Origin: Naegleria gruberi
Lineage: Eukaryota
Assembly: GCA_000004985.1 (NCBI GenBank)
Contig: GG738910.1
Direction: 5' to 3' (one strand)
Length of the DNA: 64,000 nt
Shown: positions 26,701-64,000 of the stretch, piece by piece
Position numbering within the stretch: the stretch's first letter is position 1
Layout: every line of letters begins with the position of its first letter
Position numbers and translations under genes: made by a program
The notes under the pieces: model-generated
Seen by the model: only the letters and a program-made list of their open reading frames with translations
Database searches by the model: none
What the model was told of the DNA's origin: nothing

Positions 26701-29700
26701 ACCTCTCTCGATTATTACGATGGAGAGATTTATATTTTAGAAGAATACGCTCTCAGAAAAGTTAATTCCAAAGGAATAATGATACCAATAATTAGTGGGC
26801 AAGGAACAACGTCTTGGTCGAATGGAGTTAGAAAATTGCCATTACAAGATGCATCAATTCCTGCATGTAGTTTTATGAAAGTTGTTAATGAAAATGAGAT
26901 TTATATTCTCAGTACTGCAGGACAGTTGTATATTGTAAGAAATGGAACTGTTGAGAGACCTATTATAACTAAAGATTTATCTTTTATGGGCCCAGTATAT
27001 TCCCAATTCTATAGCACAAGCGATGGAGAATTTTACATGTTGACTGCAAATACGGTTGAATTAGGTAAAATGAGTTGTCCTTCATTTTCCAAACAAAATG
27101 AAAATGATACATGTGAAAATATGATAACTTGTTTTGGTTTAAAGTCAACAGATCAAAATGTTTGTTCAACGAATGGTAAATGTTCAGCTTTGGATACATG
27201 TATCTGTAATTTTGGTTGGAGTGGTGTTAAATGTAATGAATCAACTGCTCAATTGGTGATTCAAAGCCTGAACCCAAACAGAGTTACCACTGATGATGGA
27301 CTTGATATTGGTTTCAAAACCTCCTCTTCTCCATTGACAAATTTAAAAGTTGATACAAAAACAGGAATTGTTTATTTGCTTTCTGGAGGAAAAACCATTT
27401 CTCTCAACGGCAAAACAAATGATTGGGTTAGATCCAGTGATACAACATCAAAATCTATGATTATTTCTAAAACAACAGGTTACTTCTATTTTTTAAGAGA
27501 ATCTTGCATCTACCAAAGGGGAGCAACTCCTTATCCATATTATTATTCTGGAAATTGCTACACTAAGGGTTCAGTTCTTGGAACTATTTCAACCGCATCA
27601 TATAACAACTTGGAAGATGGTGACTCTGGGGAGGATGGTAGTTTGTATATAGTTGATAGTGGAAATCACGTTGTAAGATTAATATCAGAAGGAGTAATGT
27701 CAACCTTTTGTGGTAGTTTTGGTGTTTCTGGTTTATTTATCAACTCTAATTCCTCAACCAAAACTTTTTTGAAATCACCAAGGGCCATCAAAGTCACCTC
27801 AAACGGGGTTTACATTGCTGATAGTGGAAATTACAGAATTCTTTTTATTGATAAATCTGGACATGTCCAAAAAATTGCAGGGTCATCAAATGGTACATCA
27901 AATGGGGATGGAAAAGCAACTCTGACAAATATTTTCCCTTCTAATTCATTGGATTATTCAGAGAGTCGCCAAGAACTGTACTTTATAGATAATAATAGAG
28001 ATGAGATGAATTCAGGGAGTGTAAAAGTAAGAAAGATTACCAAAGATGGATATGTTGAAACGTTGTTTGGTTATTACGAGAGGGATCCATATTCAAACTT
28101 AACAGTTCCAATGACCATCACACTGGAAAAGGATACCAGTTTCTATGCAGCAAATTCTTTGGCTGTTTCAGGTGATTACTTGTATTTAACATTTGATTCT
28201 GTGAAATTGATTGCAAAAGTTTCACTTTCCACAAATACCTTGTATGTGGTTTCCAAAATAGGTTCAGTCCTGAATGGTGATGGCTTTCATGTCGGTTTTA
28301 CCACCTTCCAACACCCAAGTGCACCATATTTCCATAGTATTACTCGTACTTTGTATTGGGTTGAAATGTCCTCAATAAGAATGATGAGAGATAACAAAGT
28401 TTACACCGTGGTTGGCCTTAATTCAAACATTCCTTCCTTTGGAAAGATGAAACCATTGTGGAAAGATATTTCTCCAAAAGGAATTGCACTTTCATCAACT
28501 GGAGAGTTATATTTTTCTGATGGACAGCATGTCATTTATAAGATTCTAAATTCAAGATCTGATATTGAAATTGTTTGGGGAAAGAAAGGTGTTTATGGAA
28601 GTGCTGACACTCTTCTAGAAAATCCAACTGCTATTTTTATTAATTCCAAAGATGAACTGTATATTGCTGATTCATACAGAATAATCAAGTTTGACATCAC
28701 CTCCAAGAAAATTACTAAAATAGTGAGTAAGAGTGATGTATATTTTGGTATATGTTCATCAGTGATAGAACTTTCAACAGGAGAAATAGTCTATGTGGAT
28801 TCTTATTTTAAAAAAGTTAGAATGATTCTCAACAATGGTACAAATATTATAATCGCTGGTGGTGGTTTAAAAACAGGTGTTTCGAATGGTGATCTTGCAA
28901 CAAAACTACTTTTCACCACTCCTGTTTCAGTTCAAGAAATCAACACAGGAGTATTACTTTTGCTGGAGCAAAACTCTTTGATCAAGATGACTTGGTCTCC
29001 ATCTAGAAATGGTTATATTTGTTCAATAATTGCTGGAAAGGGCTTATATAGTATGACTGCCTCAGGAAATGGTGGTCTTGCGATAAATGCTGTTATCTAT
29101 AATTTTGCTATGAGTTACAATACATTTACGAAAGAGGTTTATCTTCTTGACAATGTTGAGTCAAGAATTATCACTCCGTACTGTCCAGAAGGGTTCACTT
29201 TTAATATTTCAAATGAGACATGTCAGCCAGTTGATATGTGTTTTGGTTTTAATTCAAATGACAACAGAGCGTGTTCTGGAAGAGGTGAGTGCGTTGGTCT
29301 TGATGCATGTAATTGTTTTGGAGGTTACAGTGGAATCAAGTGTGAAATAATGTGTCACAAAACATGTGAAGGAACTGTTGTGGACGCATCATTCATGTTA
29401 ACGGAATTCTCAACTGATTTTAGCAAACCTGGCAATTTGGTGGTAGATTCTGAGTACATTTATGTTTCTGATTCTGAAGACAATGTAGTTAAACGTTTTG
29501 ATAAGGGTGGATATTCTTCAATTTATTGTGGAATTGAAGGACAAAGTGGCAACCAAGGAAATGGTTTACCAGGAACTGAAGCCACACTAAATTCACCTCT
29601 AGGTTTAAGTGTATACAATAATGAACTATTTATTGCTGATTTTAACAATAGTGTCATCAGAAAGGTTGACGCTTTTGGGTTTGTTGATGTTGCATTCAAT

Positions 29701-32700
29701 ACAACAGAAAAACCTCTCAACATTATTGCCAGGGGCGAAAACGTATTTTACTATACAGATTCCACTTCATTGTACATGATTAACCAATCAGTTATTAGTA
29801 CCATTGCAACAGGATTTGATAGTCCTTATGGATTGTTCTATTATTCAAATACGTCCAACATGGAGGAAAGTTTACTAGTTGCAGATACCAATAATAACTC
29901 AATCAAGAAGGTATCTCTCTCTGATAGACAAGTTACCATAATTCTTTCTAATTTGAATTCTCCTAAAGGACTATTCATTGATTCTTTTGGTGATCTTTAT
30001 ATTGCTGACAGTGGATCAAACCAAATTTTAAAGTATTCAGGAGGTGTTTTGAAGGTAATTGCAGGAACATCCAATTCCTCAATGAATGGTACAGATGGTG
30101 CAATCAATTCACTTCAAGCAATTCTGCACTCTCCTAGTGATCTTATTGTAACAGATGAAGGAATTATTTATTTCACCGATTCACAAGGATATGCCGTGAA
30201 AACTCTCACTCCTGTTTGTGATAAAATTTCCATGTATGATCCAATTTTAAGAAAGTGTTTCCGACCTCTACTTTGTTTCAATTTTGGTATTGATGATAAG
30301 AGAGCTTGTAGCTCTAATGGTCAATGTGTTGCAGAGAATACCTGTAATTGTAATGATAATTGGGGAGGGGATGATTGTTCCATTCCATCATGTTTCAACA
30401 TTTCTGCTTCAAGTACCACTACGGTTTGTTCTGGACATGGTTTGTGTATTGATCATAATACTTGTCGATGTGATACTGGTTGGTCTGGTGCTGACTGTTC
30501 AATTGCATCATGTTATGGTATCAAGGGTGATAACAGTTCAGTATGTTACGGAAATGGCCAGTGTGTCGGTTTTAATCAATGTTCTTGTAATAATGGATGG
30601 TCTGATTTCGATTGTTTGACACCTTCGTGCTTTGGCTTGACCTATGATTTGGATTCTTCATGTTCTGGAAATGGCAAATGTATTTCTAATGATACTTGTG
30701 AATGTTATTTAGGTTATCAAGGTCCTGATTGCTCTACAGTGTCAGTCGATCCATTCCAAGTATACAATCCAGTACTAACTGTTAAGACTATTGGTTCTTT
30801 GAACAAACCAAAAGGAGTTACAGTATCTTCGAGTGGTGATATTTATTTCAGCGATACTAGCAACAATAAGTTGAAGAAGATATTACAATCTGATTGGTCT
30901 GTATCTCTTATTGCTGGAACTGGTACTGGTTCGTTTTCAGGTGATGGATCTTCACCAACAGCAGCCACTATTAATAATCCTATTGGTTTGGATATTACAG
31001 AAAACGGAGAAGTTTATTTTGCTGATTCAAATAACAATAGAGTTAGAAAATGTAGTTATGATGGTAAATTAATCTCGACAGTGGTCCAAGTTACATCTCC
31101 TCAACAAGTCAAAATTGACGAATACAATAATCGATTGTGGATTGTTGCTTCTGGAGGAGTTTACATGTATGATTTGAATATTGCAAATATGACCCTTGTA
31201 TACAGTAATGATCTCAATACTCCATTCGGAATTGATATTGGATATCAAGGTAAAATAGTGTACATTACAGACAAATCAAATCATGTTATTAGAAAGCTCG
31301 CAAAAAGAGGTAATTCATATGTTCAATCTATTTATTTTGGAAGTAAGGGAGTAACTGGAACCTACTCATCAACATCTAATATGAATAACCCAATGGGTAT
31401 ATCAGTAACTAATGGTAATAGTATTATATTTTCTGATTCCTCTAATCATGTAATTAAACTGATTTCTCATGGAGTTAACAAGACAACATCAGTTATTGTT
31501 GGTACTGGATCTTCATCAGGTTATTCAGCAACAGAAACTAAACCTCTTTCCATGGCTCTAAATACTCCCGGTGATGTATTTGTGAATGAGAAAGGAATTT
31601 ATATTGCTGATACCAATGACAACGCCATTAGAATTATTAAGATTTCATGTCCATACACTAACTATGTTTTCAATTATTATACTTCCAAGTGTGAATTTGA
31701 TACCAGAATTTCTTGTAATAAGATTTCATTTTCTTCACCAAATGTTTGTAATGGTAAAGGTGTTTGTTATGGAGTTGATAAATGCAACTGTACAAGTGGG
31801 TGGAATGGTACTTTTTGTGAAATACCTATTTGTTTTGGAGTGTCCAATCCAAAACTAGCTTGTAGTTCAAATGGTCAATGTATTTCTAACAATACTTGTT
31901 CCTGTAATGATGGTTGGTTTGGATCTATTTGTCAAAATCCATCTTGTTTTGGAATTTCATATAATGATTCAAATACCTGTTCTGGAAATGGTCAATGTAT
32001 TGCAAATAATACTTGCTCGTGTGATAATTTTTACGAAGGCAAAAATTGTTCTCTTCCAAAATGTTTTGGTATTAATTCAGACAGCTCATTGGTTTGTAGT
32101 GGAAATGGTTTATGCGTTAGCCCAGATACATGTAATTGTACTAGCGGTTATTTTGGAAATGATTGTTTTTACACAAATTGTTTTGGAATATTGTCAGGAG
32201 AAACTACTGTATGTTCCTCAAAAGGAAACTGTACTGCTCCAAATACTTGTTTTTGTGAAAAAGGGTATTATGGGAATCAGTGTCAAAACTTTACTTGTTT
32301 TGGAATTGACTCATTCAGCCCCAATGCTTGCTCATCTCGTGGAAGTTGTATTGACATCGATAAATGTAAATGTGGAGATGATTTTTATGGTTCTAATTGC
32401 ACAGGGTTTGATTGCTTTGGTTATCCATCAACTAATCCAAATACTTGTTCTGGTAAGGGTGATTGTTTAAATCCAAACACTTGTATCTGTAATGATGGTT
32501 ATGCAGGTGAAAGGTGTGAAATTGCTCGTTGTTTTGGAGTTTATGGAAATGAATCAAACGTATGTGATTCACATGGTGAGTGTGTATCCTTAGATAACTG
32601 TACATGTACATCACTTCATCATTATGGAGATAATTGCGATAGATTTGATTGTTTTGGAATTGAGAGTAGCAATTCAAGTGTTTGCTCTTCCCATGGAAAT

Positions 32701-35700
32701 TGTACTTTCCTTGATATTTGTAATTGTTCGAAAGGTTACGAAGGTTTATCATGTTCTGAATTCAATTGTTTTGGAAAAAAGCCAATCGCTTCTGATATTT
32801 GTTCTGGAAATGGCATTTGTACTGGTCCAAATATATGTAATTGCAAAGATGGGTATTTTGGAGATGATTGTCAGATAACCAATTGTTATGGAATTCATAG
32901 TAATGAGTCTAGTGTATGTTCATCAAATGGTAGATGTATTTCTTTAGATTCTTGCTCTTGCTCTTTTGGATATTATGGAGAGATGTGTCAAGAATATGAT
33001 TGTTTTGGAATGAAACACTCAAATACAAGTGTTTGTTCACAACATGGAACATGTCATTCTCCAAATAATTGCACTTGTAATGATGGATATCATGGTGCAG
33101 ACTGTGATAGATTCAATTGTTTTGGAGTTTCTTCTTTCAATAGTTCAGTATGTTCATCAAGAGGTTACTGCAAATTACCAAATGTCTGTTCTTGCACTGG
33201 AACTTTTTATGGTGAAAATTGTGAACAATATGACTGTTTTGGAATCAATTATCAAAACTCAAATGTTTGTTCCTCACACGGTAAATGTATTGGGGCTGAT
33301 GCTTGTCAGTGTTATGATGGATATATATCTAGTAATTGTTCTGTTCCTCTTTGCTTTGGTATTTCAGCTCTTAACTCGTCAGTTTGTAGAGGACATGGTT
33401 ATTGTACTTCACCTAATAAGTGTGACTGCATTTCGAATCAAGATACAAAGTTTGATGGACAGGAATGTCAAAATCATTTCTGTAAGGAATACGATGGAAC
33501 CTTAATAAGGTTTAACAATAATTCAGTTTGTAGTGGTTCTGGAGTTTGTAAGTTAAATCGAGTCATGAAGAGAAGCGAATGTGTATGTAGTGAAAATTAT
33601 GGAGGAGAGTCTTGTGAAATGCCAAAATGTTTCGGTATTTTACAAAATGAGACAAGTGCTTGTAACAACAATGGATTTTGTTCAAGTGTAGATACTTGTG
33701 AATGTCATCATAATGATTTTTTTGGATATTGGAAGGGTTCTAATTGTACACAATGCCAAGTTCCATATTCTGGATCCAAATGTAATGTTATTAAGGAGTG
33801 CAATGCTTCTGTCTGTCATAACAATGGTATTTGTGACGAGTACATGACTTGCATTTGTAATTCTAATCAAACACATGGTTTCTGGAATGCAGAATTTTGT
33901 AACGTTTGTCAAGAAGGTTATTATGGAAAGGAGTGTTCCACGCAAATGCTTGGCCCTCTTAAATTAAGTGGAGAGGCATCATCCATGACATTCAAGATGA
34001 ATGCTCCAATTTCATTTTCAAAGACAAGTGTTAACTGTACAAGATTTTTGAGGGAAGATTCTTATGAAACTGTTGGAGGATTGCAATCTATTTGTTCTTG
34101 GAATAATAGTATGATGAAAGTGACATTTGGTGCTTCATTTGATGTTAAATCAGGTAGAATTATTTATTTGAATAGATTGGTCTTTGATGAGAGCGGATAT
34201 GATTACGAACCGATCAAATTGGAATATCCAGATACACCAATCCTTCCTACTGCCATTGTCGAATCAAACAAATTAGTTGGATCTTGCGACAGTATTATAA
34301 TTGATGGAAGTAAGAGTTACTCTCCTGATTCTAAACCTCTTTCATTTTCTTGGAAAGTTGTTAATTCTCCAAATATTAATAGTTTGCAACACATTGTACA
34401 ATCACAAACAAGATCTATTCTTTCCATTGATAGTAGCAATTGCTCTACAGGTGTTCACATTTTCGAGCTGATTGTAAAGAGTTCTATATTAGAATTACAA
34501 AGTATTCCACTAACAATTTCCATCACTAAGGCAGAAATTCCTCTACCAACTATTTCCATAGATGCACAAGCCTCCCCTCTCACAACTTCAAAGTTACCAT
34601 ACAAGATAATGAAAAGTACTGTTTTGCCTGATTGTGCTCAATCTTTGAGTATGATATATAATTGGAAGCTGGTGAGCGGTAGAAACGATATTGTTTTTGA
34701 GATGGATCAATTTAATAATTTAGTAATTATCAATTACTTCCTGGAAGATTCAAGTTATGAATTTGAATGTAGTGTATTTGTGGAAGGACATGCAGAAAAT
34801 ATTATTACTTCAAAAGTTTCCTTTAGTACCAAGATTAGTCCTTTATCTTCTGAAATCAGACTTGTTGAATTATCAACCAATTATACTATTATTCAATTAT
34901 TGTTCAGGGATCCAGAAATTGTTAATGAAGAGGTTAATGTTGAATGGGAGTGTATTGATTTGGACACCAAACTGAATTGTTCATCGTCACTTCTTTCCCA
35001 TCTTTCAACTTTACCTCTTAACTCTGAATTTTTAATATCTGGAAGTTTGTTATCAAATTACAACAACATATCCTTGAAATCTACTATCAAGAAGGGAAAG
35101 AGAATTTCCAATAGTGAACTCGTAGTAACCATTCCTCAAAAAACACTCCCTCCAATTATTTCACCTGTTTATCTGTCGCCAAGTAATTTAGCTCTAGGAT
35201 CGAGTATTAATCTTCAATTTGGTGTAACTATCGATGGAAGTGATGACATTAGTTCAGCTATTAGTAGAAAATGGACTCTCAACAATGTTGTTATTGAAAA
35301 ATCAGATAGTATGAGACTGGATCCATCTGAATCCAACTCCTTAATATTAGCAACTAATTCTTTTACAGAAGGGGCCACATACAAGATTGATTTCAAAGTG
35401 ACTGACCAAAGAAATAATCAATTTTCAATCTATTCCTATTCTTTTTCAATCAAGATTTCTCCAAAGTGTACATGTACAATTAGTCCATCATCTGGTTATG
35501 CTCTCCAAACTCTTTTTACATTTGCATGTACTGATTGTAAAAATAATCAAGGACCTTTATCGTTCGAATATGGCTTCATAGATAGTCGTTACCAAACTAG
35601 AGTAACCTTATCAAAGAGTTCTAAATATTCGGCCGTTCTCCCATCCTCTTATCAAGGAAATACATTGAATCTGTATGCTGTTGTTAGTGACTCTGTAAGT

Positions 35701-37050
35701 CAATCATCAAGTTATTTGAGTGCAGAAGTTCTTGTACCTGTCATTGGTTCACTAGCTGAAGCAAAGAAGAAACAACTTCAATGGAAAACAACAGGTTCCT
35801 CACTCAAAGATGGTGATTATATGAAGAGTGTGTATAGCAATGATGTTATGACAAGTACTTTCACAAAGATGATTGCCTCTTTACTATCAGCAAGATCTGT
35901 TTGTAACGGAAAAGGAGTTCTAAATAATGGAAAATGTCAATGTGATAATGGGTATTCTTCATTTGATTGTAGATATACCACTTCTGATTATGTATCCATT
36001 CAAGAGAGTGTATTTGATTTATCTAACGATTTTAAAGAAACATTTGGTGTTTATCTAGATTCCAAAGATATTCTAAGCGAAAAGTTTGTTGCCAATATTA
36101 TTTTCGGACTTGAAACTTTGACAAATCGTTTTGATTTCTTGAATGAGACATCTTTTGACATTATCTTATCAATTGTTGATCATTTATTGGAAGAACACGA
36201 AAAGTATTCATCAGTTCAAACATCCAATGGTGTAGATACGCTCTTACTCGATATTTTGGATCATTTATATTCTTTTACAGAATATTATGAGATTAAGGAA
36301 CAATTAATGAGCAAATTAATTGAAATTTCCCAAAGACTCTCTTCACTTGAATCAAGAAAAATATTGGTCGGCCAACCTCCTTTAATTCTTTCCAATCAAT
36401 TACAAACTTCAATTACCAACAAACATTTTAGAGAGGAATATTCAGGACTAGTAATTAGATATAATAATTATTCTACTATACTACCAGAGTCTTTCTCAAA
36501 GCATCTATCCAATCAGCCAAAGAGAGTACCAGTTACTTACAGTTGGTTTGCTCTTAAAGATCTTTCACAATTCATATTACCAGGAAATGCATCAAGAATT
36601 ATCTCAAAATATGTTGTGAAATTCACATTGGAAAAGGTTAAATATTTGGAATTATTGAAAGAACCTGTGAAATTTGAAATACCACTCATTGAACCAATAG
36701 ACATGAATTCTAATAAGTATTCCTGTATTGACTTTTCCAACATGACAATGCCAGTGGAAAGTGAGTGCCAATTTAAAGTGGAAAATGGAATAGCCTCTTG
36801 TTCTTGCTTAAACTACTCAAGTACCGTTGGAATAACATTCTTTGAACGCAGTCGAAGAGCTCCATCAATTCTTGCAGTTAAAACTGCACCACTTTGGGAA
36901 TTATTCTCTCTACTCACAATTCCATTTGCAATAATTTTGGTTGGTTGTGCATTCACAATTAAAACGATTTTTAACAGAAAAATCAGCCTTGACAATAATC
37001 AATTCGAATTGAGAAACGTGGACAGCATGATTGTGACGGAATCAGCTTAA
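23745..37050 (+). CDS. Giant (about 4,400 aa) secreted type I membrane protein. Domain order: NHL beta-propeller(s), interspersed single EGFs, array of more than 25 tenascin-type EGF repeats, laminin-type EGF, PKD/REJ-like region, CxC-ISP module, GPS-like motif, TM, 26-aa tail
   Basis: Exon 1 is 23745..24735, starting MATFIQEKQMAVSKGAQKSSIISTMMMIIFVCLLFLANSIRG with a signal peptide and NHL motifs (IYIAEKGNHVIRKV, IYIADSGNNRVRKV). A 49-nt intron at 24736..24784 (GTATGT...ATAG, phase 1) follows. Exon 2 is 24785..37050, the 4,078-aa ORF. The EGF array spans about 31650-33950. Other landmarks are the KCTCTISPSSGYALQTLFTFACTDCKN motif, ASCSCLNYSSTVGITF juxtamembrane, and TM LFSLLTIPFAIILVGCAFTI. 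The 5' end (gaaccttaaaaaaatg) is shared with the 46962 gene. Confidence 0.8.
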
Positions 37051-38253: not shown

Positions 38254-41200
38254 TTAAACAGACTTCATTTCAACTCCTTGTTTTGAGGAATTTGTAGTTT
38301 CTGGTTTCATTCTCTTAACAACACAATAACCAAAAATTCCCAATACAATAAAGGCAATAATGATAAAGCAAATAATCAAAAAAGCCCACAAAATCCAGAA
38401 TAACTCAGAGATTCCCTTTGGAGTTTCAGGATTAACTTGTTTTTCAATTGGAACAGATGATAAAATACCAACTCTAACATTTTCTGAACATTCACATTGG
38501 CCAGAATTAGAATTGAAGGAGAATTTACATGAAGAAGCATCAATGACTTGACCATTTGTAACTTGAATGCACGAATAAGTTGCCTTATCATTAAAAGTTT
38601 GTGTAAGTGGCAAGGAATGAGTTATTGGAGAGGAATAGTTTGTAATAGATGTTGAGAATTTAATTTCAGATAAATCAGAGACAATAGTATTAGTTGTACC
38701 TTCTTGTTGAGGAGTTACATATTGAGAAACATCCTTAATAATCATCCAAATGTAATTGACTGGCTTTCTGAGAGAGACACTTTGTAACCTTTGAGAAACA
38801 GTTGAAGGAAGAGTTAATGAAGTTTGACTTTCTGTCAAAACTTGTGAATCAAAAGTATTCTTAAATTGCTTGTTGAATTGATGAACTGCAAAATTAGGTT
38901 CAAACTTGAAAGATGATTGACCAACAAGAACCTTTCTTGAAAGTAATGAAACCACCATGTGACAACTTTCCATCAATTCTGAATAGTCATACGAAGGCAA
39001 AGTCTTTAAATAAGAATGCATGGAATTGAGGGACGAAAGCAACAACCTTTCAACACCAACTTCAAATTGGAATAATGGAGTGTTTTCAGCATCATTCAAG
39101 GTTGACTTGATAATATTCATACTCATGTTATAGACATTAGCAGAAACGTAACTCTTCAACATAGATTCAATACCGAACATAATGTTAGTAAAAAACCTTC
39201 CAGTTATCTTTTCTCCATTTTCATTCTTGACTTGTTGGGAAGAAAAGAAAGCAGTAGCCAAATCTTGAGTAATTTCATTCAAAATTTCATAATCTTCCTT
39301 TGTCATTCTACAGTCAAATGTTGTGTAATCAGCCTCACAAACACATTTTCCATTAACCAATGAACCATGTCCAGAACAATCTTTCTTTACACTTCTTGAT
39401 TTAGGGGCGAGAGAATCTGTCATTCTCTTGAGGACTCTTGAAATGATTGCAGAATTGAAAACAGATCTAGCATAATCACCAGTTGGTAATAATAAGGTGA
39501 TGGCGTTCCATTTTGTCATGTACTCCTTGATATCCTTTACCTTTGATACATATGGAGCTGTAATTTGAACTGATTTCTTGGAAAGAGTTGTTGCAGATGT
39601 TTCAGTATCAATAACCTTAACATACAGTTCAAGATTATTACCAGAATTTGGAGTTGGAAGTTTTTGGTACAATTCTTCATCCTTTGATAAGGTAATTAAA
39701 GCACCTGAGAAATCATCAATAAAACCATATTCGAAAGCATAAGTCTTCTTATCATTTTGACAATTTTCACAATTGAAAGTAAAGATTGTGGTCAAAGCAA
39801 TACCAGAAGTTGGACTAATGGCACAACTACATGCTTTTGGAGGTCTGTTAACAGAGAAGGAATAAGAATATGATGTCTTTTGATTATTTCTCTTATCCAA
39901 GATAGTTAATGAAATGGTATTAGAACTACCTTCATCCAAATATTGAGTATCCAAAATTAGAGAATTTGACAATGATGAACTGATACTCATTGGTGATGTT
40001 AATATAGCATCAATAGCCTTGTCATTCAATAACCATGTTCTTGAGATGAATTGATCTATATTTAAATCACCATTAATAGTGACAACCAATTGAATATTGA
40101 CATAATCTCCCTTATTAACCTTTGAAGAAGATACTTGAACAACGGAGATCAAAGGTGGCATGATTAAATGTTCTGCTTGTTGTGGAAAATTCAAATCAAC
40201 TGATGATTGAACAAATCTACTTCCCTTTCGAATAGTGAGGCTAATTCTAACATTTTCTGCTGAACCAAACATTGACTTTTCAATCTTGTATTGTTCAAGA
40301 AAACCTTGAGACAAGTAATTAACAACATCAACTGGACAAACAGTATTAGTAACAGTGTCCACACATGTCCAAGAATAAGTTGGTTGAACATTTTCAGATT
40401 CTGGATCAGTGAAATCAATTCCAATGGTACTGTATTGAGGAGTAGAATCTAAAACATACATGTTCATTGAGAGTGCTTGAGCTACAGTGTCGATAGTGAC
40501 AAGAGCTGTTGAAAATTTGTTAACATTAGAAGTATCGAAAGCAGAGACTTTGAAAACATATTGTCTTGTTTCAATGGTATTGAAATTGGTAATCTTTAAA
40601 TTCTTGAATGAATCAACTGTGAATTCTACTTGAGGACCACTGATTTGTGTCCATGTGTAATCAATATTTGCAGCAGATTCCATGCATATTGGAATGGACA
40701 GCTTCTTCTTGAATGAAATTGGAACGTCACTAGTCTTGACAGTAACTGAACTACTTTTATATAAGCCATCAATGGAAACAACTGGAACAGCATAGGTAAG
40801 TTTGGTGAAACTGAATTGAATCTTATCAACCAATGAATAAACTTGACTAGTTACAGCCAATTCAAATTGATGAACACCAGCATTCATACCAGAATAGCTA
40901 ATATTCAATTTACTTGGGGAAGCAAGAGTAGAATCCAATAACTTTTGAAGTTCTACCTTATTTGGTGATGACAATACAGTCCATTTGAAATTCAATGTCT
41001 TTCTATCAGGGGAATAACTTTCAGAAGCATCAATTAAAACATCTTCACAACTTCCATAAGTGTCCTTAGCTCCAGATATTGTGGCAATCGGACTCTTTGG
41101 TGATAAAGCACCTTGGACAGTAAATGCCAAATATTGAGCATTGACATTATTTGATTCAAAGTATAAATTATTCAAAGAGATACTATCACCTGCCTTCAAT

Positions 41201-43920
41201 TTGTAGTCCGTGTTAAGTTCAATTGAGAATTCAAACGTTTCCTTGTTAGACCAGTAACATTTTGGATTAGTTCCAAGAAGATCAATACTCTTCAACAACT
41301 TGTTACAATCAAGAATCATACTATTAGTATATAAAGAAGAATAAGATGCAGGTGCAATAACCTTAAATGTCAAACCAGTCAAATCATCCATAAAAAGAAC
41401 TGGTCCAATAATCTTTGTTGAACACAATTCACCATAAACTCCATCTGCACAGGTAGAACAAGATTCACCCTTCCAGAAACCTTTCTTGTTATCTGCATAA
41501 CAAGTACATTGTTCAAGCTCATTACAATAACCATTTCCACTACAAGTAGTTGAGGCATTACATTTAACCAAACTATTACACATAGCTCCTAAATAAGGAG
41601 AAACACATGCTGAACAATCTGCACCAGTCCAATAACCTTTGCCAGCTATGTTATCACAGACACAAATATTCAAATCTGTACATTGACCATGTCCAGAACA
41701 AACAGATGAAGCATTGGAAGAAATGCCACCACAAGTGAATTGAGCACAATGACTTCCGTAATATCCAGATTGACAAGAACAATGATCGAAAAAATCACAT
41801 CTACCTTTTCCATAACATGCTGACGCATTTGTTGAGGCAGTTCCATAACAATCAAATTGACTACAATCATATCCAGTAGTATCCATCTAAACAGGAGCAA
41901 TTATTTGGGGAGATGCAACCACCATGTCCATAACATGCTGAACCACTTGTTGAGGCAGTTCCATAACAATCAAATTGACTACAATCATTCCCGTAGTATC
42001 CATCTAAACAAGAACAATTATTTGGTGAGATGCAACCACCATGTCCAGAACATGCTGATGCATTTGTGGAGGCAGTTTCGTAACAATCAAATTGACTACA
42101 ATCATTTCCGTAGTATCCATCTAAACAAGAACAATTATTTGGTGAGATGCAACCACCATGTCCAGAACATGCTGATGCATTTGTGGAGGCAGTTTCGTAA
42201 CAATCAAATTCACTACAATCATTTCCATAATATCCAGCTAAGCATGAACAGTTATTTGGTGAGACACAACGACCATAACTAGAACAAACTGAACCACTTG
42301 TTGAGGCAGCTCCAAAACAATCAAACTCAGCACAGTCATTTCCGTAATGTTCGTTAGAGCATGAGCAATTATTTGGTGAGATGCAATCACCATGTCCAAA
42401 ACAAACTGAACCACTTGTTGAGGCAGTTCCAAAACAATCAAACTCAGCACATTCATTTCCATAGTATCCAGAGGTGCATGAACAATTATTTGGTGCAATA
42501 CAATAGCCATTTCCAGAGCAAGCTGATGAATTACTTGGTGAAATATCAAAACATTTGAAAGAACTGCAATCTGATCCACTATATCCAGCTAAGCATGAGC
42601 AGTTATTTGGTGAGAGACAGGTTCCATGAACAGAACATGCTGATGCACTTTTTGAGGCAGTTCCAAAACAATCAAATTGGCTACAATCATTTCCATAGTA
42701 ATCGTTTGAGCATGAGCAATTATTTGGTGAGAGACATATTCCTTGAGAAGAACAAACTGATGAAGAAGTAAATAATGTACCAAAACATTCGTATTCACTA
42801 CAATTACTACCATAGTATCCATAGGTGCATGAACAATTATTTGGAGCAATGCAACTACCATGACCAGAACAAACTGATGCATTACCTGGAGCAATGTCAT
42901 AACATTTGAATAAACTACAATCAGCACCACTGTATCCAGATAAACAGGAGCAATTGTTTGGAGCAACACAACTTCCATGTCCTGAGCAAACGTTGTGGTC
43001 AGTATTCAAAATATCACTACAATTAAAAAGTTGACAATCTGCACCAAAGTAATTTGTTTCACATTTACAAGTATCTATGGCTGTACATGTTCCGTGGCCT
43101 GAGCAAACAGTTGAGTTGTCACCTGAAATTCCATTACATGTTGGATATTGACAAGTGTTTGGAGCAACACATGTGGTATATTGAGGACATGCTTTTGGAT
43201 GTGTGGCCACAATACCATTACACTTTGGAGTTTGACAATTTGAACCACCCCAAAGTACACCATAATCTGTCAAGCTGCCAGGAGGAAAAAAAGTATCCTT
43301 TCCAAACCCATGGAAAGGAAAAGTTAAACAAGCACCTTTAGTATTGTTAGCGAAATAATCAGACACTTGAAGTACTAACCTTCTAAAGAATAAAGAACCA
43401 TGTTCCCATCAACTTGGAGAACAAATTTGAAAGGTGGAGACTGACTAGCACACTCACCAGTTTTCATGGCTTCCCTGTGTTGATTCAAATCTGCCTTTTC
43501 CGTGTTACCGTCGTACAATTTAAGAGAACCAGTTTGTGTTAACACTAACTTATAACCATCAGTTGCTGGGCCGAAAGTAGAACTATACCGAGTCATTGTT
43601 CTGAGACCTATCTGAATGAGACTACCATCATCGTTCAAGATTAAAGTCAACTTTCCATCAGCAGATGTTAATGCTTTAGTTGCATAGAGAATTGGTGATT
43701 GTTCAGTGAGGCCTGTTTTTTCTGAAAGATCAACACAGAGGCAGCTGTTTTCACCATAGCAAATATTCCCTCCACAAGTCGAATTGTCTGTTCCAGGAAT
43801 TCCATTACAAGTATATGAAGTAACCTCACTGATTATGAAAAGCAAAAGGATTACCAACACCGACACGAACAGTTTCATGTTGTGGATTTTTTTTAAAGTC
43901 GAATTTTCAAATTGAATCAA
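38254..43920 (-). CDS. Large (about 1,870 aa) secreted type I membrane protein. Domain order: signal peptide, bulb-type (GNA-like, beta-prism II) lectin domain, about 19 tenascin-type EGF repeats, laminin-type EGF, PKD/REJ-like region, CxC-ISP module, GPS-like motif, TM, tail ending in KSV. It has one intron and one apparent +1 frameshift
   Basis: Exon 1 is 43920..43380 (MKLFVSVLVILLLFIISEV signal peptide). The lectin signatures are GKLTLILNDDGSLIQ, YKLVLTQTGSLKLYD and FKFVLQVDGNMVLYS (QxDxNxVxY type). A 44-nt intron at 43379..43336 (GTTAGT...AAAG, phase 1) joins ...LYSLE-G-ACLTFPFHGFGKD in frame. The EGF array is then continuous to 41867. At about 41884-41890 (tactacTggatatgattgt) one extra base breaks the repeat consensus ...CSCLDGYYG(N/Y)DCSQFDC..., and the downstream 1210-aa ORF (41886..38254) continues the same array in the other frame. 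Further landmarks are the ACSCAISPTSGIALTTIFTFNCENCQN motif, GQCECSENVRVGIL juxtamembrane, and TM at about 38330-38400. Confidence 0.72.
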
Positions 43921-46961: not shown

Positions 46962-49900
46962 ATGAACCTTAAAAAAATGAAAACATTTCTTGTTTGCTGC
47001 TTGATTTTAATAATCATTTGCACTGTCTCATCNNNNNNNNNNNNNNNNNNNNNNNNNNNNNNNNNNNNNNNNNNNNNNNNNNNNNNNNNNNNNNNNNNNN
47101 NNNNNNNNNNNNNNNNNNNNNNNNNNNNNNNNNNNNNNNNNNNNNNNNNNNNNNNNNNNNNNNNNNNNNNNNNNNNNNNNNNNNNNNNNNNNNNNNNNNN
47201 NNNNNNNNNNNNNNNNNNNNNNNNNNNNNNNNNNNNNNNNNNNNNNNNNNNNNNNNNNNNNNNNNNNNNNNNNNNNNNNNNNNNNNNNNNNNNNNNNNNN
47301 NNNNNNNNNNNNNNNNNNNNNNNNNNNNNNNNNNNNNNNNNNNNNNNNNNNNNNNNNNNNNNNNNNNNNNNNNNNNNNNNNNNNNNNNNNNNNNNNNNNN
47401 NNNNNNNNNNNNNNNNNNNNNNNNNNNNNNNNNNNNNNNNNNNNNNNNNNNNNNNNNNNNNNNNNNNNNNNNNNNNNNNNNNNNNNNNNNNNNNNNNNNN
47501 NNNNNNNNNNNNNNNNNNNNNNNNNNNNNNNNNNNNNNNNNNNNNNNNNNNNNNNNNNNNNNNNNNNNNNNNNNNNNNNNNNNNNNNNNNNNNNNNNNNN
47601 NNNNNNNNNNNNNNNNNNNNNNNNNNNNNNNNNNNNNNNNNNNNNNNNNNNNNNNNNNNNNNNNNNNNNNNNNNNNNNNNNNNNNNNNNNNNNNNNNNNN
47701 NNNNNNNNNNNNNNNNNNNNNNNNNNNNNNNNNNNNNNNNNNNNNNNNNNNNNNNNNNNNNNNNNNNNNNNNNNNNNNNNNNNNNNNNNNNNNNNNNNNN
47801 NNNNNNNNNNNNNNNNNNNNNNNNNNNNNNNNNNNNNNNNNNNNNNNNNNNNNNNNNNNNNNNNNNNNNNNNNNNNNNNNNNNNNNNNNNNNNNNNNNNN
47901 NNNNNNNNNNNNNNNNNNNNNNNNNNNNNNNNNNNNNNNNNNNNNNNNNNNNNNNNNNNNNNNNNNNNNNNNNNNNNNNNNNNNNNNNNNNNNNNNNNNN
48001 NNNNNNNNNNNNNNNNNNNNNNNNNNNNNNNNNNNNNNNNNNNNNNNNNNNNNNNNNNNNNNNNNNNNNNNNNNNNNNNNNNNNNNNNNNNNNNNNNNNN
48101 NNNNNNNNNNNNNNNNNNNNNNNNNNNNNNNNNNNNNNNNNNNNNNNNNNNNNNNNNNNNNNNNNNNNNNNNNNNNNNNNNNNNNNNNNNNNNNNNNNNN
48201 NNNNNNNNNNNNNNNNNNNNNNNNNNNNNNNNNNNNNNNNNNNNNNNNNNNNNNNNNNNNNNNNNNNNNNNNNNNNNNNNNNNNTAACTCTAAGTACAAT
48301 GGTGATTATCAATATGCAACAAATGCCAATTTGAATTATCCATTGGGTGTTTTGATTACACCTAATGGAGAAATGATCATTTCAGAAACATACGGTAACA
48401 GGATTCGCAGAGTATTAACAAATGGAACTATCATTCCACTGGCAGGGAGTGGAAGTTCAAATGATTGTGCAGGTATTACAGCATCTAACACTCCATTGGT
48501 AAGTCCAAAAGGAACTTATTTTAGTGCGAATGGAGATATTTATGTAGCTGAAACTCAAGGTCATAGGATTAGTAGAATTTCAAAGAATGGAATGATTGAC
48601 TCTATTGCTGGTACAGGTAAATTTGGTTTTAATGGAGATAATTTATTTGCTACAGATACACAATTATCAAATCCTTTTGCAGTTGCCTTTGATCTAGAAA
48701 CCCAATTGATTGTCTCAGATTCTGGTAATCATGTCATTCGTAAAATTCTTAGAAATGGAACAATGGTCATTATTGCTGGAACTGGACAATCAGGATATAA
48801 TGGAGATGGAATTGATGCTAAGATTGCAAAATTAAATAATCCATCAGGTATTGTTGTGGATTCTAAAACTGGTGAGCTTTTTATTGCTGACACTGCTAAT
48901 AATAGAATTAGAAAGATTTTAACAAACGGTACTATAATAACTATTGCTGGAACAGGTGAAACAGGATATAATGGAGATGGAATTGATGCAACAAGCGCTC
49001 AAATAAGAGGCGTGTATGGTATTGCCCTTGATGTTAATTCTGAGCTCTACATTGCTGATGCTAATAATTATAGGATTAGAAAGATTTTATCAAATGGAAC
49101 AATTATAACTATTGCTGGAAATGGAGGCTATGGTTTCATTGATAATGTTCTTGCAACAAATGCCAAACTTGCTTTCGTTAATGGAATTGCTGTAGATACG
49201 AACGGTGAAGTTTATATTACTGAGTCTGAGAATGGATTTTCAAATCATCGAATTCGTAAAATATTGACAAATGGAACCATTATAACATTTTCAGGAACTG
49301 GTTCAAGAGGTTATTATGGTGATAATGTGGAAGCAGCTGATGCCAAATTCTATACTCCTTATTTCGTTTCTGTTCGCCAAACAACAGGTGAGGTGCTTAT
49401 TTCAGATACTGGAAATAATTTCTTGAGATTGGTTTCAACAACTCGTCTATGCAATGGAACTCTAGCAAGTGATCCTATGGTTTGTAGTGGGCACGGAATA
49501 TGTTATTTAACAGATGTTTGCACTTGTAACCCTGGCTATATTGGTTCATTATGTGATGTTGTGGCATGTAATGGTTTCAATTCGAGTGATCCTAGAGCTT
49601 GTAATGGACATGGTATTTGTGAAGGACCAAACATTTGTAATTGCACTACAGGTTATGTTGGTTCATTTTGTGATGTTTCTTTGTGTTATGGTTTCAATTC
49701 GAGTGATTCAAGAGTTTGTAATGGACATGGTATTTGTGAAGGACCAGATATTTGTAATTGCAGCACAGGTTATATTGGCCCACTATGTGATGATGTGGCA
49801 TGTGATGGTTTCAATTCAAGTGATTCAAGAGCTTGTAATGGACATGGTATCTGTGAAGGACCAAACATTTGTAATTGCAGCACAGGTTATATTGGTTCAT

Positions 49901-52900
49901 TTTGTGATGTTGTGGCATGTGATGGTTTTAAAATAAGTGATCCTAGAGCTTGTAATAGACATGGTATTTGTGAAGGCCCAAACATTTGTAATTGCACTAC
50001 AGGTTATGTTGGTTCATTTTGTGATGTTTCTTTGTGTTATGGTTTCAATTCGAGTGATCCTAGAGTTTGTAATGGACATGGTATTTGTGAAGGACCAGAT
50101 GTTTGCAATTGTACCACAGGTTATGTTGGTTCATTTTGTGATGTTGTGGCATGTGATGGTTTCAATTCAAGTGATTCAAGAGCTTGTAATAGACATGGTA
50201 TTTGTGAAGGCCCAAACATTTGTAATTGCACTACAGGTTATGTTGGTTCATTTTGTGATGTTTCTTTGTGTTATGGTTTCAATTCAAGTGATCCTAGAGT
50301 TTGTAATAGACATGGTATCTGTGAAGGCCCAAACATTTGTAATTGCACTACAGGTTATGTTGGTTCATTTTGTGATGTTTCTTTGTGTTATGGTTTCAAT
50401 TCGAGTGATCCTAGAGCTTGTAATGGACATGGTATTTGTGAAGGACCAGATGTTTGCAATTGTACCACAGGTTATGTTGGTTCATTTTGTGATGTTTCTT
50501 TGTGTAATGGTTTCAATTCGAGTGATCCTAGAGTTTGTAATGGACATGGTATCTGTGAAGGCCCAAACATTTGTAATTGCAGCACAGGTTATATTGGCCC
50601 ACTTTGTGACGNNNNNNNNNNNNNNNNNNNNNNNNNNNNNNNNNNNNNNNNNNNNNNNNNNNNNNNNNNNNNNNNNNNNNNNNNNNNNNNNNNNNNNNNN
50701 NNNNNNNNNNNNNNNNNNNNNNNNNNNNNNNNNNNNNNNNNNNNNNNNNNNNNNNNNNNNNNNNNNNNNNNNNNNNNNNNNNNNNNNNNNNNNNNNNNNN
50801 NNNNNNNNNNNNNNNNNNNNNNNNNNNNNNNNNNNNNNNNNNNNNNNNNNNNNNNNNNNNNNNNNNNNNNNNNNNNNNNNNNNNNNNNNNNNNNNNNNNN
50901 NNNNNNNNNNNNNNNNNNNNNNNNNNNNNNNNNNNNNNNNNNNNNNNNNNNNNNNNNNNNNNNNNNNNNNNNNNNNNNNNNNNNNNNNNNNNNNNNNNNN
51001 NNNNNNNNNNNNNNNNNNNNNNNNNNNNNNNNNNNNNNNNNNNNNNNNNNNNNNNNNNNNNNNNNNNNNNNNNNNNNNNNNNNNNNNNNNNNNNNNNNNN
51101 NNNNNNNNNNNNNNNNNNNNNNNNNNNNNNNNNNNNNNNNNNNNNNNNNNNNNNNNNACCAAAATTCAAATGTTTCGACTCTAGTTACCATTCAAACAAG
51201 CTCTGAACAATTATATGCAAACCTTTTTATTGATACTATTTCCAGTAAGAAGGTAACACTTGTGGTTGCAAATCAAGATTTAGAACAAAGTAATGAAGCG
51301 GAAACTTGGAGTTACGTTTGTCAAGATGAAAATTTTACTAATTGTGGTCAGACAATTGCCAATATTCTCTCGAATTATGCTTCTATCAAATCTAAAACTT
51401 TGGAATTATCAGCAGATAATTTCCCATCCATTGATTCCACATATTCAATTACTTTAAACATTGTAAAGGGAGTAAGAAGTTTTTCATCTTTAATTTCCTT
51501 GAAATTTCCAAAAGAAAACCAAAAACTTCCTCCAATAGTTAACTTATTGAATGTTATTCCAAATAGAAACAGATTAAGCAAATCTGAATTTTTGAATTTA
51601 CAAATTTCTGTCACTAACAGTGATGGATTGGATGTCAAAAATTTAAAAAGAGAATGGAAATTGAATGGACAATCAATTGATGATAACTATTTAACCAAGA
51701 TGAGTACAGCATTATCAGATTCTAACAATATCGTTTTAAGTATCACCTATTTAGATGAAGGTTCATCTAACGTATTGACATGTCAAGTCACAGATTTGGA
51801 TAGTCAATTGTCAAGCACTTTTAGTTACTCATTTTCAATTATTACATCACCTAAACCATGTCCATGTTCAGTTTCACCATCTACAGGATATGCGTTAGAA
51901 ACAGAATTTACCTTCTCATGCACAAACTGCCAAAATAAGGACAATACTCTAGCATTTAGTCTATCATTTGTAGATGATAAATCTGGAGCTCTTATTCCAC
52001 TTGTAATTGAAGGTGGAAACACATTTACCACAAAGCTTCCATATCCAATTTCCAATCCATTAATGTTTGACATTACAATTGTTGACATAGAGACACTTGC
52101 ATCAGTTCAAAACTATCAAAACATTCAGATGATTTTACCAAAAGCAAGTTCTGTTCGTGAAGTCAAAACAAAAGTTGCCAAGTGGAATACTTTCCAAACT
52201 TCACTTCAACAAAATGATTTGAGAAGAATGATTTTCTCATCTGCAATTATTTCTAGAACCTCTGAGGCAATGATTTCAGCAATCAGTGGAAGAAGATCTA
52301 TTTGTTTGAACGGCGGAGTTTATAATTCTCAATTAAGAAAATGTATTTGTGTGAATGGATACAAAAAGAAAGATTGCAGCCTTAATGAAGAAGATTTCAC
52401 ATTGTTAACTGAATTTAAAGGTGAATTATTTAATAACTTTTTATTTGCATTCAAAAACAGACAAGAACAAATGTCTGAAATGTATATCATCTATCAATTA
52501 TATGGCTTGGATTCACTTTTATCAAATTATGATGAATTGAATGCTGAGATGTTTGCAAATGGAGTCCAATTCTTCAAGGATTTAATATCTTCCGCTGTTA
52601 GTGTTTCTAATTTACATCTAAGACCTGGAATTGACAAATTAACTCAAAATATTATCAACTCACTTTACAGATATTTGATTTATAATGGATGTATTGAAAA
52701 GGAATGTTTGAGAGATCATGTTATTGAAATGATAAGCATGTTGAAAGAAATTTCACAACTATTACTCAGATCCAAACTTGTAGGAGAAAGTGATCTGAAA
52801 TTAGACACTGATTTTATGGTGTTATTGACAAATAAGAACTATAGATACCATTTCAATAGTTTGAAAGTTCAAAATTTAACTTTACCTACCAATGATGAAG

Positions 52901-53529
52901 GAATTTCTTCAATTAATAACAGAATGCTATTGTCTTTCATTTCAACTAGTTCACATAATTTGGCCAACAAAATTGAGTCAACAATTGAAGTTTATGAGAA
53001 GGTAGAAAATAATAGAAAAGAGACTCAAACAATCACCAAGGATTATTCTATTACTTCAAATGTTATAAGTTTTTCCTTTTTAAGAGACCTCCAAATGAAT
53101 CAATCCATTTCCTTCTCCTTCCCTAGAAATGATCAATTTTCCGCAAGAAGCGAGCAATCATTCGAATATTCATGTATTGTAATTTGGAATATCACTCAAG
53201 TTAGACCAGAAAATGAAAATAATAATTGTAAAATAGTTGTCAACCAAGAAACAATTATTTGTCAATGTCCATATCAAAACCAAACTCAAGTAGGTGTTTT
53301 GAGAACAGCCATTTCGAGACGTGTTTCAGTTGAACAAGTAGCTCAACCTTCAGATTCAAGTAATTTACTCTATCTATTATTTTTACTCTTTTTAGTATTG
53401 TTTATTATTTTAATTGTAATAATAATTGGAATTGTTATTGTATGTCTGGTTAAAAGAAGGAGAAATGGTGGTAGTAAAAAGTCAGCAGCACATGTTGAAA
53501 TGGAGACTGTTAAAACTTCGACAGTTTAG
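46962..53529 (+). CDS. Large secreted type I membrane protein interrupted by two assembly gaps. Domain order: signal peptide, [gap], about 8 NHL repeats, at least 9 near-identical 40-aa EGF repeats, [gap], PKD/REJ-like region, CxC-ISP module, GPS-like motif, TM, tail ending in STV
   Basis: ATG at 46962 (or 46977) opens MNLKKMKTFLVCCLILIIICTVS, which then runs into the N-gap. The frame reopens at 48285 (...NGDYQYATNANLNYPLGVLITPNGEMIISETYGNRIRRV...) and is continuous, through the second gap as X, to TAG at 53527-53529. Landmarks are the PCPCSVSPSTGYALETEFTFSCTNCQN motif, IICQCPYQNQTQVGVL juxtamembrane, and TM LLYLLFLLFLVLFIILIVIIIGIVIVCLV. Exon structure inside the gaps is unknown. Confidence 0.68.
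47033..48284. other. Assembly gap (1,252 N) inside the 46962..53529 gene
   Basis: Run of N. Confidence 1.
49555..50611 (+). repeat. Coding tandem repeat, period 120 bp (40 aa: CDV(V/S)(A/L)C(D/Y/N)GFNSSD(S/P)R(A/V)CN(G/R)HGICEGP(N/D)(I/V)CNC(T/S)TGY(V/I)G(S/P)(F/L)). There are about 9 near-identical copies, running into the gap at 50612
   Basis: Successive 120-nt units differ at only a few positions. The array is truncated by the N-gap, so the copy number is unknown. Confidence 0.8.
50612..51157. other. Assembly gap (546 N) at the end of the 120-bp EGF tandem array
   Basis: Run of N immediately after repeat unit 9. Confidence 1.
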
Positions 53530-63690: not shown

Positions 63691-64000
63691 GGTTTAGATT
63701 TTTAGGCTTGGGTTTTTAGGCTTGGGTTTGGGTTTGGGTTTGGGTTTGGGTTTGGGTTTGGGTTTGGGTTTGGGTTTGGGTTTGGGTTTGGGTTTGGGTT
63801 TGGGTTTGGGTTTGGGTTTGGGTTTGGGTTTGGGTTTGGGTTTGGGTTTGGGTTTGGGTTTGGGTTTGGGTTTGGGTTTGGGTTTGGGTTTGGGTTTGGG
63901 TTTGGGTTTGGGTTTGGGTTTGGGTTTGGGTTTGGGTTTGGGTTTGGGTTTGGGTTTGGGTTTGGGTTTGGGTTTGGGTTTGGGTTTGGGTTTGGGTTTG
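63691..64000 (+). repeat. Telomeric repeat array. Degenerate lead-in (TTTAGATTTTTAGGCTTGGGTTTTTAGGCTTGGG), then about 46 perfect TTTGGG units (63724..64000) running to the window end; the G-rich strand points 5'->3' outward
   Basis: Perfect hexamer periodicity to the last base. It is preceded by variant repeats and by non-coding subtelomeric tandem duplications. Confidence 0.75.

What the first reader, a model, noticed from the sequence alone, without database searches (positions are those of the whole stretch)
49555..50611. Concerted evolution: 120-bp EGF units homogenized at nucleotide level, truncated by an assembly gap
At least nine consecutive 120-nt units in gene 46962..53529 are near-identical at the nucleotide level, with only N/D, I/V, S/P and G/R toggles. 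By contrast, the more than 25 EGF repeats of gene 23745..37050 are similar only at the protein level. Three near-identical units also occur in gene 38254..43920 (CSQFDCYGTASTSGSACYGHGGCISPNNCSCLDGYYGND, about 42100-41870). This indicates recent unequal crossing-over or gene conversion. The EGF copy number is probably variable between individuals, and the assembly almost certainly collapsed or broke here (gap 50612..51157).
Basis: seen in the sequence. Interest (0 to 1): 0.55.

Follow-up and report, generated by a model that had tools for sequence, protein, structure and literature searches.

The report
Recently amplified EGF repeats, Naegleria surface gene
A surface-protein gene near a chromosome end of the amoeba Naegleria gruberi carries at least nine recently copied and reshuffled 39-residue EGF modules, and the 2010 draft assembly breaks inside this run; this is an ordinary coding tandem repeat, not a new kind of element.

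Summary
The array is real. From 49555 to 50607 there are nine in-frame head-to-tail units of 117 nt (39 aa), not 120. Pairwise identity is 79-99% at the nucleotide level. A diverged first EGF lies upstream, and a sized scaffold gap (50612-51157) cuts the tenth unit.

Synonymous difference between units is 0.23, against 0.61-0.70 in the EGF arrays of neighbouring paralogs. The similarity is therefore at the DNA level, not only protein constraint.

The units are mosaics: 46 of 78 informative site-pattern pairs fail the four-gamete test, against 3-6 expected for tree-like duplication (0 of 1000 simulations). This fits intra-array unequal exchange or gene conversion, though chimeric Sanger consensus could mimic it.

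The window is Naegleria gruberi. The gene is NAEGRDRAFT_74100 (NHL propeller, EGF array, REJ domain, one TM helix). It sits about 10 kb from a (TTTGGG)n telomere, in a cluster of six related genes. The public protein model starts after one gap and splices over the other.

Strict concerted evolution and copy-number polymorphism remain untested. In paralogs, about 1.2 kb of non-repeat sequence lies where the gap is, so the gap is not simply missing EGF units.

Verdict: ordinary, a new member of a known kind.

The parts
46962..47032 (+). Start codon and hydrophobic N-terminal signal-like peptide (MNLKKMKTFLVCCLILIIICTVS) of the gene, cut by gap 1
   Evidence: The signal-peptide reading is by eye and was not run through a predictor.
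47033..48284 (.). Scaffold gap 1 (1252 N) inside the N-terminal part of the gene. The reading frame differs on its two sides.
48286..49437 (+). NHL (teneurin-type) beta-propeller repeats. The open frame runs straight out of gap 1.
   Evidence: Pfam NHL E=4e-28 and TEN_NHL E=8e-27; frame check
49438..49554 (+). First EGF unit, diverged (50-59% nt identity to the others). This is the non-homogenised edge of the array.
49555..50611 (+). Nine homogenised 117-nt (39-aa) EGF units plus the first 4 nt of the next. There are two subtypes (linker DVVA or DVSL) in the order A B A A B A B B B.
50612..51157 (.). Scaffold gap 2 (546 N = 182 codons, in frame). It hides the 3' end of the array and probably the atypical EGFs and the N-terminal PKD/REJ region.
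51160..53529 (+). C-terminal part of the gene: REJ domain (about 51301-52221), one isolated EGF (52300-52377), a transmembrane helix (53365-53451), a short basic tail and the stop codon
   Evidence: Pfam REJ E=3e-21; coordinates. The TM helix was read by eye.
41746..43150 (-). Second 117-nt EGF array, in the paralog 38254-43920. Identity rises from 5' (40-60%) to 3' (two units at 98%).
41870..41886 (-). +1 frameshift inside that array (tactacTGGATATGAT where the other units read tactacGGAAATGAT). The repeat continues in another frame.
63722..64000 (+). (TTTGGG)n telomere repeat, 46.5 copies, at the end of the window
   Evidence: TTTGGG was proposed as the N. gruberi telomere repeat in PMC3622300.

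Best explanation
The feature is a genuine in-frame coding tandem array in the Naegleria gruberi gene NAEGRDRAFT_74100. The gene encodes a type-I surface protein: signal peptide, NHL propeller, EGF stalk, REJ domain, one TM helix and a short tail.

One or two 39-residue EGF modules were amplified recently into at least nine head-to-tail copies. Since then the copies have exchanged segments through out-of-register recombination between the 117-bp repeats. The likely routes are unequal sister-chromatid or homolog exchange, gene conversion and replication slippage. This shuffles a small set of two-state variants among the units and leaves the edge unit unhomogenised.

Because each unit is exactly 39 codons, gain or loss of units keeps the reading frame. 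It only changes the length and surface of the EGF stalk between the propeller and the membrane.

The 2010 Sanger draft could not be carried through the array, so a sized scaffold gap starts in the tenth unit.

Shown here: the array, its DNA-level similarity, its mosaic structure, the gene architecture, the gap and the subtelomeric position. Inferred: the recombination mechanism, ongoing copy-number change and the stalk role.
For: - Array: TRF finds 9.2 copies, period 117, score 1523. The units are in frame with all six Cys conserved. Each unit matches the unit profile at E = 1e-34 to 1e-37.
- DNA-level similarity: pS is 0.23 here against 0.61-0.70 in paralogous arrays A and B. pN/pS is 0.38, so the units are still under purifying selection.
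- Mosaicism: 22 informative sites fall into 13 patterns. At site level 103 of 231 pairs fail the four-gamete test. At pattern level 46 of 78 pairs are incompatible. The minimum number of recombination events (Rm) is 7 and the PHI test gives p = 0.023. Simulated tree-like duplication gives 8-12 incompatible site pairs and 3-6 incompatible pattern pairs. No simulation in 500 (site level) or 1000 (pattern level) reached the observed value, even with only 35 sites free to vary. Purely synonymous sites 81 and 90, and the mostly synonymous site 48, are also mutually incompatible (columns).
- Edge effect: the first unit is only 50-59% identical to the others. Array C shows a similar gradient.
- Expansion: the closest paralog, P0122 (55% identity), has about three EGFs.
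- Recurrence: smaller runs of near-identical EGFs occur in other family members of N. gruberi and N. lovaniensis.
- Identity of the gene: the exact protein is XP_002670944.1 of N. gruberi, and its model is spliced over the gap.
- Domains.
- Telomere 10 kb away, with 2.3-2.5 kb direct repeats in between.
Against: - The sequence is a Sanger draft consensus. Within 86-99% identical repeats, reads from different units or alleles can be merged, which would create artificial mosaics and inflate the four-gamete signal.
- No second isolate, long read or ortholog was available, so ongoing exchange and length polymorphism are inferred, not observed.
- The PHI test alone is only marginal (p = 0.023). It is helped by a six-nucleotide linked block at unit positions 25-30.
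- Mean synonymous difference of 0.23 means most units are not very young. Only units 5 and 8 are nearly identical (1 difference in 117 nt).
Confidence: 0.75

Rival explanations
1. Pure recent burst of tandem duplication, with no later exchange between units. The similarity simply reflects the young age of the copies.
For: The closest paralog has only about three EGFs, so amplification certainly happened. The units fall into two subtypes, and shifts of 3 and 7 units give the highest identity (91.6% and 90.6%). This suggests multi-unit block duplications.
Against: Tree-like evolution on the neighbour-joining tree of the units yields 3-6 incompatible pattern pairs, against 46 observed (0 of 1000 simulations). 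Synonymous sites also show all four gametes.
Confidence: 0.12
2. Protein-level constraint: the units are alike because selection demands one particular EGF sequence, not because of DNA exchange or recent origin.
For: pN/pS is 0.38, so purifying selection acts on the units. All Cys and core Gly residues and both N-glycosylation sequons are kept.
Against: Synonymous sites are three times more alike than in the paralogous arrays A and B, which have the same fold and similar pN/pS (pS 0.23 against 0.61-0.70). Nucleotide identity exceeds amino-acid identity.
Confidence: 0.03
3. Assembly artefact: part of the array, its unit order or its mosaic pattern was produced by mis-joining or collapsing Sanger reads from a longer array or from two alleles.
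For: The contig ends inside the array. There are three gaps in the last 17 kb of the window. The neighbouring array C carries a +1 frameshift that could be a consensus error. The stated gap size is too small for the domains expected from paralogs.
Against: All nine units are intact, in frame and keep every Cys. Differences are structured two-state variants rather than scattered errors. The existence of a tandem array cannot be an artefact; only its details could be.
Confidence: 0.1

Closest known systems
Intragenic coding tandem repeats (minisatellites) in subtelomeric yeast adhesin genes such as FLO1, ALS and EPA. This comparison is from my own knowledge (Verstrepen et al. 2005, Nat Genet) and was not checked in the library.
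   Same: In-frame repeats of about 100 bp inside a surface-protein gene near a telomere. The units are highly similar at the DNA level. Recombination between units is expected to change copy number without breaking the frame.
   Different: The yeast repeats are low-complexity Ser/Thr-rich stalk segments, and their length variation and its effect on phenotype were measured. Here the unit is a folded six-Cys EGF domain, and neither polymorphism nor function has been measured.
Concerted evolution within the Drosophila dumpy gene, a giant EGF-rich extracellular protein. This comparison is from my own knowledge (Carmon et al. 2007, Genetics) and was not checked in the library.
   Same: A very large extracellular protein built of EGF-type modules. 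Part of the repeat region is homogenised within a species at the nucleotide level.
   Different: In dumpy the between-species comparison that defines concerted evolution was done. Here it could not be. The homogenised dumpy repeats are the PIGSFEAST units rather than the EGF modules themselves.
Teneurin-type NHL plus EGF modules (Pfam TEN_NHL, EGF_Teneurin, EGF_TEN)
   Same: The best Pfam matches for the propeller and the EGF units are the teneurin models.
   Different: There is no YD shell or toxin domain. The orientation is type I, with a C-terminal TM helix and a REJ domain. The protein shares modules with teneurins but is not a teneurin.
Polycystin-1 and sea-urchin REJ receptors (REJ-domain proteins)
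   Same: A REJ domain (E = 3e-21) follows PKD-like repeats in the paralogs, close to the membrane.
   Different: There is a single TM helix, not eleven. No PLAT domain is present and Pfam detects no GPS motif.

Membership tests
EGF-like domain (Pfam EGF_2 / EGF_Teneurin) | Six cysteines with the C-x-C-x2-G-aromatic-x4-8-C signature, and a significant profile match | tested here: met
   EGF_2 E=3e-39, EGF_Teneurin E=1e-39, 7 stretches each. The signature is present in every unit at 39-residue spacing.
EGF-like domain (Pfam EGF_2 / EGF_Teneurin) | 1-3, 2-4, 5-6 disulfide connectivity and the EGF fold | not tested
   No structure was predicted. This is inferred from the Cys spacing only.
Coding tandem array under concerted evolution | Head-to-tail in-frame units of constant length | tested here: met
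   Nine units of 117 nt with 0% indels
Coding tandem array under concerted evolution | Units within the array are more alike than units of paralogous arrays, at synonymous sites too | tested here: met
   Within the array (first, diverged unit included) mean nt identity is 83%; among the nine homogenised units it ranges 79-99%. Identity to the other arrays is 48-53% on average. pS is 0.23 against 0.61-0.70.
Coding tandem array under concerted evolution | Evidence of exchange between units (mosaic units, less homogenised edge units) | tested here: met
   Four-gamete and simulation tests. The edge unit is 50-59% identical to the others. Caveat: the sequence is a draft consensus.
Coding tandem array under concerted evolution | Units cluster by species rather than by position when orthologous arrays are compared | not testable with these tools
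   No ortholog was retrieved. The best relative is a same-genome paralog at 55% identity. Naegleria gruberi loci could not be fetched.
Coding tandem array under concerted evolution | Copy-number polymorphism between individuals or alleles | not testable with these tools
   Only one assembly is held. The metagenome scans found nothing.
Teneurin | Type II membrane protein with a YD-repeat shell and a C-terminal toxin-like domain, in addition to EGF and NHL | tested here: not met
   Pfam finds only the NHL and EGF modules plus REJ. The TM helix is C-terminal.
Polycystin-1 / REJ receptor family | REJ domain | tested here: met
   PF02010 E=3.4e-21, profile positions 120-443 of 452
Polycystin-1 / REJ receptor family | GPS cleavage motif, PLAT domain and multi-pass TM region | tested here: not met
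   No GPS or PLAT hit even at E up to 10 in the last 409 residues. There is one hydrophobic helix only.
Sized scaffold gap of a draft assembly | A run of N of non-standard length in the source record, which the public gene model avoids | tested here: met
   N runs of 1252, 546 and 50 nt. XP_002670944.1 starts after the first and splices over the second.

The most novel reading that the evidence does not exclude
The subtelomeric NHL-EGF-REJ genes of Naegleria may form a contingency-type surface-receptor family. Intra-array recombination would rapidly change the number and surface of the EGF modules. Clonal lineages would then differ in a receptor or adhesin used for recognising prey, mates, kin or pathogens. 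That would make it a free-living protist counterpart of the yeast FLO/EPA or parasite subtelomeric surface families.
Probability: 0.12. Interest if true: 0.55.

Novelty: new member of a known kind. Interest (0 to 1): 0.22.

Why it matters
There are two practical points.

First, the public protein model for NAEGRDRAFT_74100 is wrong in two places. It lacks its signal-peptide start, and it joins the ninth EGF to the REJ region across a gap. Domain counts for this family taken from the 2010 annotation are therefore unreliable.

Second, this locus is a convenient marker for testing whether Naegleria subtelomeres generate surface-protein length variation.

Biologically, this is an expected behaviour of in-frame repeats in a surface gene. 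It does not open a new question by itself.

Tried and rejected
- Word-indexed protein searches with the non-repeat C-terminal part returned nothing, although the exact protein exists in the exhaustive library. The third word-indexed search, with NHL plus EGF, was swamped by bacterial NHL proteins and gave only Naegleria hints.
- Exact-product look-ups for a window gene, the closest paralog and another N. gruberi family member were all 'not on record'. I therefore could not obtain paralog DNA to date the array against the gene duplication.
- Two metagenome scans, one for the unit consensus and one for the sequence just after the gap, found nothing.
- A literature search for a description of this Naegleria family found none. 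The one apparent hit was about eGFP.
- I considered a ciliate or dictyostelid origin, from the T/G-rich telomere and the low GC. I rejected it once the exact N. gruberi protein was found and TTTGGG was found proposed as its telomere repeat.
- I considered whether the N runs were masking by the data provider. I rejected this because the public gene model avoids them.
- The gap's in-frame length (546 = 182 codons) has a one-in-three chance by coincidence, and gap 1 is not in frame, so I do not treat it as meaningful.
- A strict three-unit higher-order repeat is not supported. A shift of 351 nt gives 91.6% identity, but a shift of 819 nt gives 90.6%.
- A GPS-like Cys pattern before the TM helix, seen by eye, got no Pfam support.
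- Diversifying selection is not supported (pN/pS 0.38).
Full report
**What is in the sequence.** Tandem Repeats Finder reports an array at 49537-50609 with period 117, 9.2 copies, 86% matches and no indels. A weaker three-unit period (351 nt) gives 91% matches. All are in the frame of the ORF that ends at 53529. The stated unit length of 120 bp is therefore wrong, although the coordinates are right.

Pairwise nucleotide identity among the nine units ranges from 79 to 99%. Thirty-one of 117 sites vary and 14 of 39 residue positions vary. All six Cys, the core Gly and aromatic residues, and the N-C-[ST] sequon are kept in every unit. The N-S-S sequon is kept in eight of nine; the unit ending at 50022 reads K-I-S instead. 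The unit just upstream (49438-49554) is a diverged EGF, only 50-59% identical to the others.

A DNA profile of the units finds each unit at E = 1e-34 to 1e-37. Nothing else in the window scores better than 1e-6. The array is far beyond chance and has no close copy nearby.

All four large genes in the window use 39-residue EGF units. The ORF 24814-37050 has 26 EGF domains. Its units share only 50-57% nucleotide identity, the same as units from different genes (48-55%).

| Array | Synonymous difference per site (pS) |
|---|---|
| Arrays A and B (neighbouring paralogs) | 0.61-0.70 (saturated) |
| Distal four units of array C (minus-strand gene) | 0.38 |
| Target array | 0.23 |

pN/pS in the target array is 0.38. 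The target units are thus alike at silent sites. This excludes protein-level constraint as the reason and shows that purifying, not diversifying, selection acts on them.

The minus-strand array (41746-43150) shows a gradient from 40-60% identity at its 5' end to two units that are 98% identical.

**Duplication only, or exchange as well?** Twenty-two informative two-state sites form 13 distinct patterns across the nine units. At site level, 103 of 231 pairs show all four combinations. The minimum number of recombination or homoplasy events is 7, and a PHI-type permutation gives p = 0.023.

I simulated sequences along the neighbour-joining tree of the units with the same divergence, letting as few as 35 sites vary. 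This gives 8-12 incompatible site pairs and 3-6 incompatible pattern pairs. The observed values are 103 site pairs and 46 of 78 pattern pairs. No simulation in 500 (site level) or 1000 (pattern level) reached the observed value. Silent sites take part in these incompatibilities.

Long identical tracts occur at shifts of 1, 2, 3 and 6-7 units, so there is no strict higher-order repeat. Together with the unhomogenised edge unit, this is the signature expected of out-of-register exchange or gene conversion within the array. The main caveat is that this is a Sanger draft consensus. Merging reads from different units or alleles could create some of the mosaicism.

**What the gene and the organism are.** An exhaustive protein search found a 100% match, XP_002670944.1 / NAEGRDRAFT_74100 of Naegleria gruberi, on a 243,952-bp scaffold. 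The neighbouring giant ORF is NAEGRDRAFT_53247.

The domain order is as follows:
- a hydrophobic N-terminus at 46962
- NHL propeller repeats
- the EGF array
- a REJ domain (E = 3e-21)
- one isolated EGF
- one TM helix and a short basic tail

The public model is defective. It starts after gap 1, and it joins '...CEGPNI' to 'FTIQTSSEQ...' across gap 2 as if the gap were an intron.

Relatives with the EGF-REJ-TM core are found essentially only in Naegleria: many N. gruberi paralogs, plus N. lovaniensis and N. fowleri. Several carry short runs of near-identical EGFs, but none as long as this one. The closest relative is a same-genome paralog (55% identity) with about three EGFs. The long array here is therefore a lineage-specific amplification.

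**Position.** The window ends in 46.5 copies of TTTGGG. This repeat was proposed as the N. gruberi telomere from genome data (PMC3622300). The gene ends about 10 kb from it. The interval holds 2.3-2.5 kb direct repeats. Six genes with NHL and/or EGF-REJ modules fill 6-53.5 kb of the window.

**The gap.** The N run starts 22 nt into the tenth repeat (TRF register), so the contig truly ends inside the array. Its length, 546 nt, happens to be in frame. Gap 1 is not in frame, so I give this no weight.

In three paralogs about 300 aa of PKD/REJ sequence lie between the end of the EGF region and the point where this gene resumes. About 110-140 aa of atypical Cys-rich modules lie before that stretch; I read this figure by eye from the paralog translations and did not measure it. 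If this gene keeps that architecture, the gap hides at least about 1.2 kb of non-repeat sequence plus an unknown number of units. Its stated size would then be an underestimate. Otherwise the gene has lost that region. 'Collapsed EGF units' is thus only part of the story, and generally poor subtelomeric coverage (three gaps in 17 kb) is an alternative cause.

**What could not be done.** No ortholog, second isolate or long read was reachable. A Nanopore re-assembly of N. gruberi exists (PMC12695648) and would settle the unit count and the reliability of the mosaic pattern. Strict concerted evolution and copy-number polymorphism therefore remain predictions.

**Verdict.** This is a real but ordinary coding tandem repeat. 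It is a recently amplified and apparently recombining EGF array in a subtelomeric, genus-specific surface-protein family, interrupted by a draft-assembly gap. It is a new member of a known kind. Its practical value is as a flag for a faulty gene model and as a candidate marker for subtelomeric variability in Naegleria.

Noticed in passing
window 63699-64000: The window ends in 46.5 perfect TTTGGG repeats, preceded by degenerate TTTTTAGGCTTGGG units. This matches the candidate N. gruberi telomere repeat proposed in PMC3622300, so the window is a chromosome end.
   Followed up: partly
window 53735-57260 and 58739-63387: Between the gene and the telomere lie direct repeats 2.3-2.5 kb apart (73-98% identical). 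They include duplicated short ORFs (54045-54368 and 56656-56904). They look like a subtelomeric repeat element, with a 50-N gap at 63034-63083.
   Followed up: partly
window 41870-41886 (- strand): There is a +1 frameshift inside the EGF array of gene 38254-43920 (tactacTGGATATGAT where the other units read tactacGGAAATGAT). The array continues in another frame. This is either a pseudogene or a consensus error in a repeat.
   Followed up: partly
window 46962-53529: The public model XP_002670944.1 (1514 aa) lacks the signal-peptide start upstream of gap 1. It also treats gap 2 as an intron, fusing the ninth homogenised EGF unit to the REJ region.
   Followed up: yes
window 6253-53529: Six genes with NHL and/or EGF-REJ-TM modules (6253-8367 -, 10284-12452 +, 16292-22405 +, 24814-37050 +, 38254-43920 -, 46962-53529 +) occupy about 47 kb next to the telomere. 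This is a subtelomeric cluster of a family found only in Naegleria.
   Followed up: partly
window 53167-53300: Just before the TM helix there is a Cys pattern (C..IW...C....C.C....VGVL) that resembles a GPS/GAIN autoproteolysis motif by eye. Pfam gives no GPS hit, so this is unsupported.
   Followed up: partly
window 49555-50607: Every unit keeps the N-C-[ST] N-glycosylation sequon, and the T/S toggle preserves it. Eight of nine units also keep N-S-S; the unit ending at 50022 has lost it (K-I-S).
   Followed up: no
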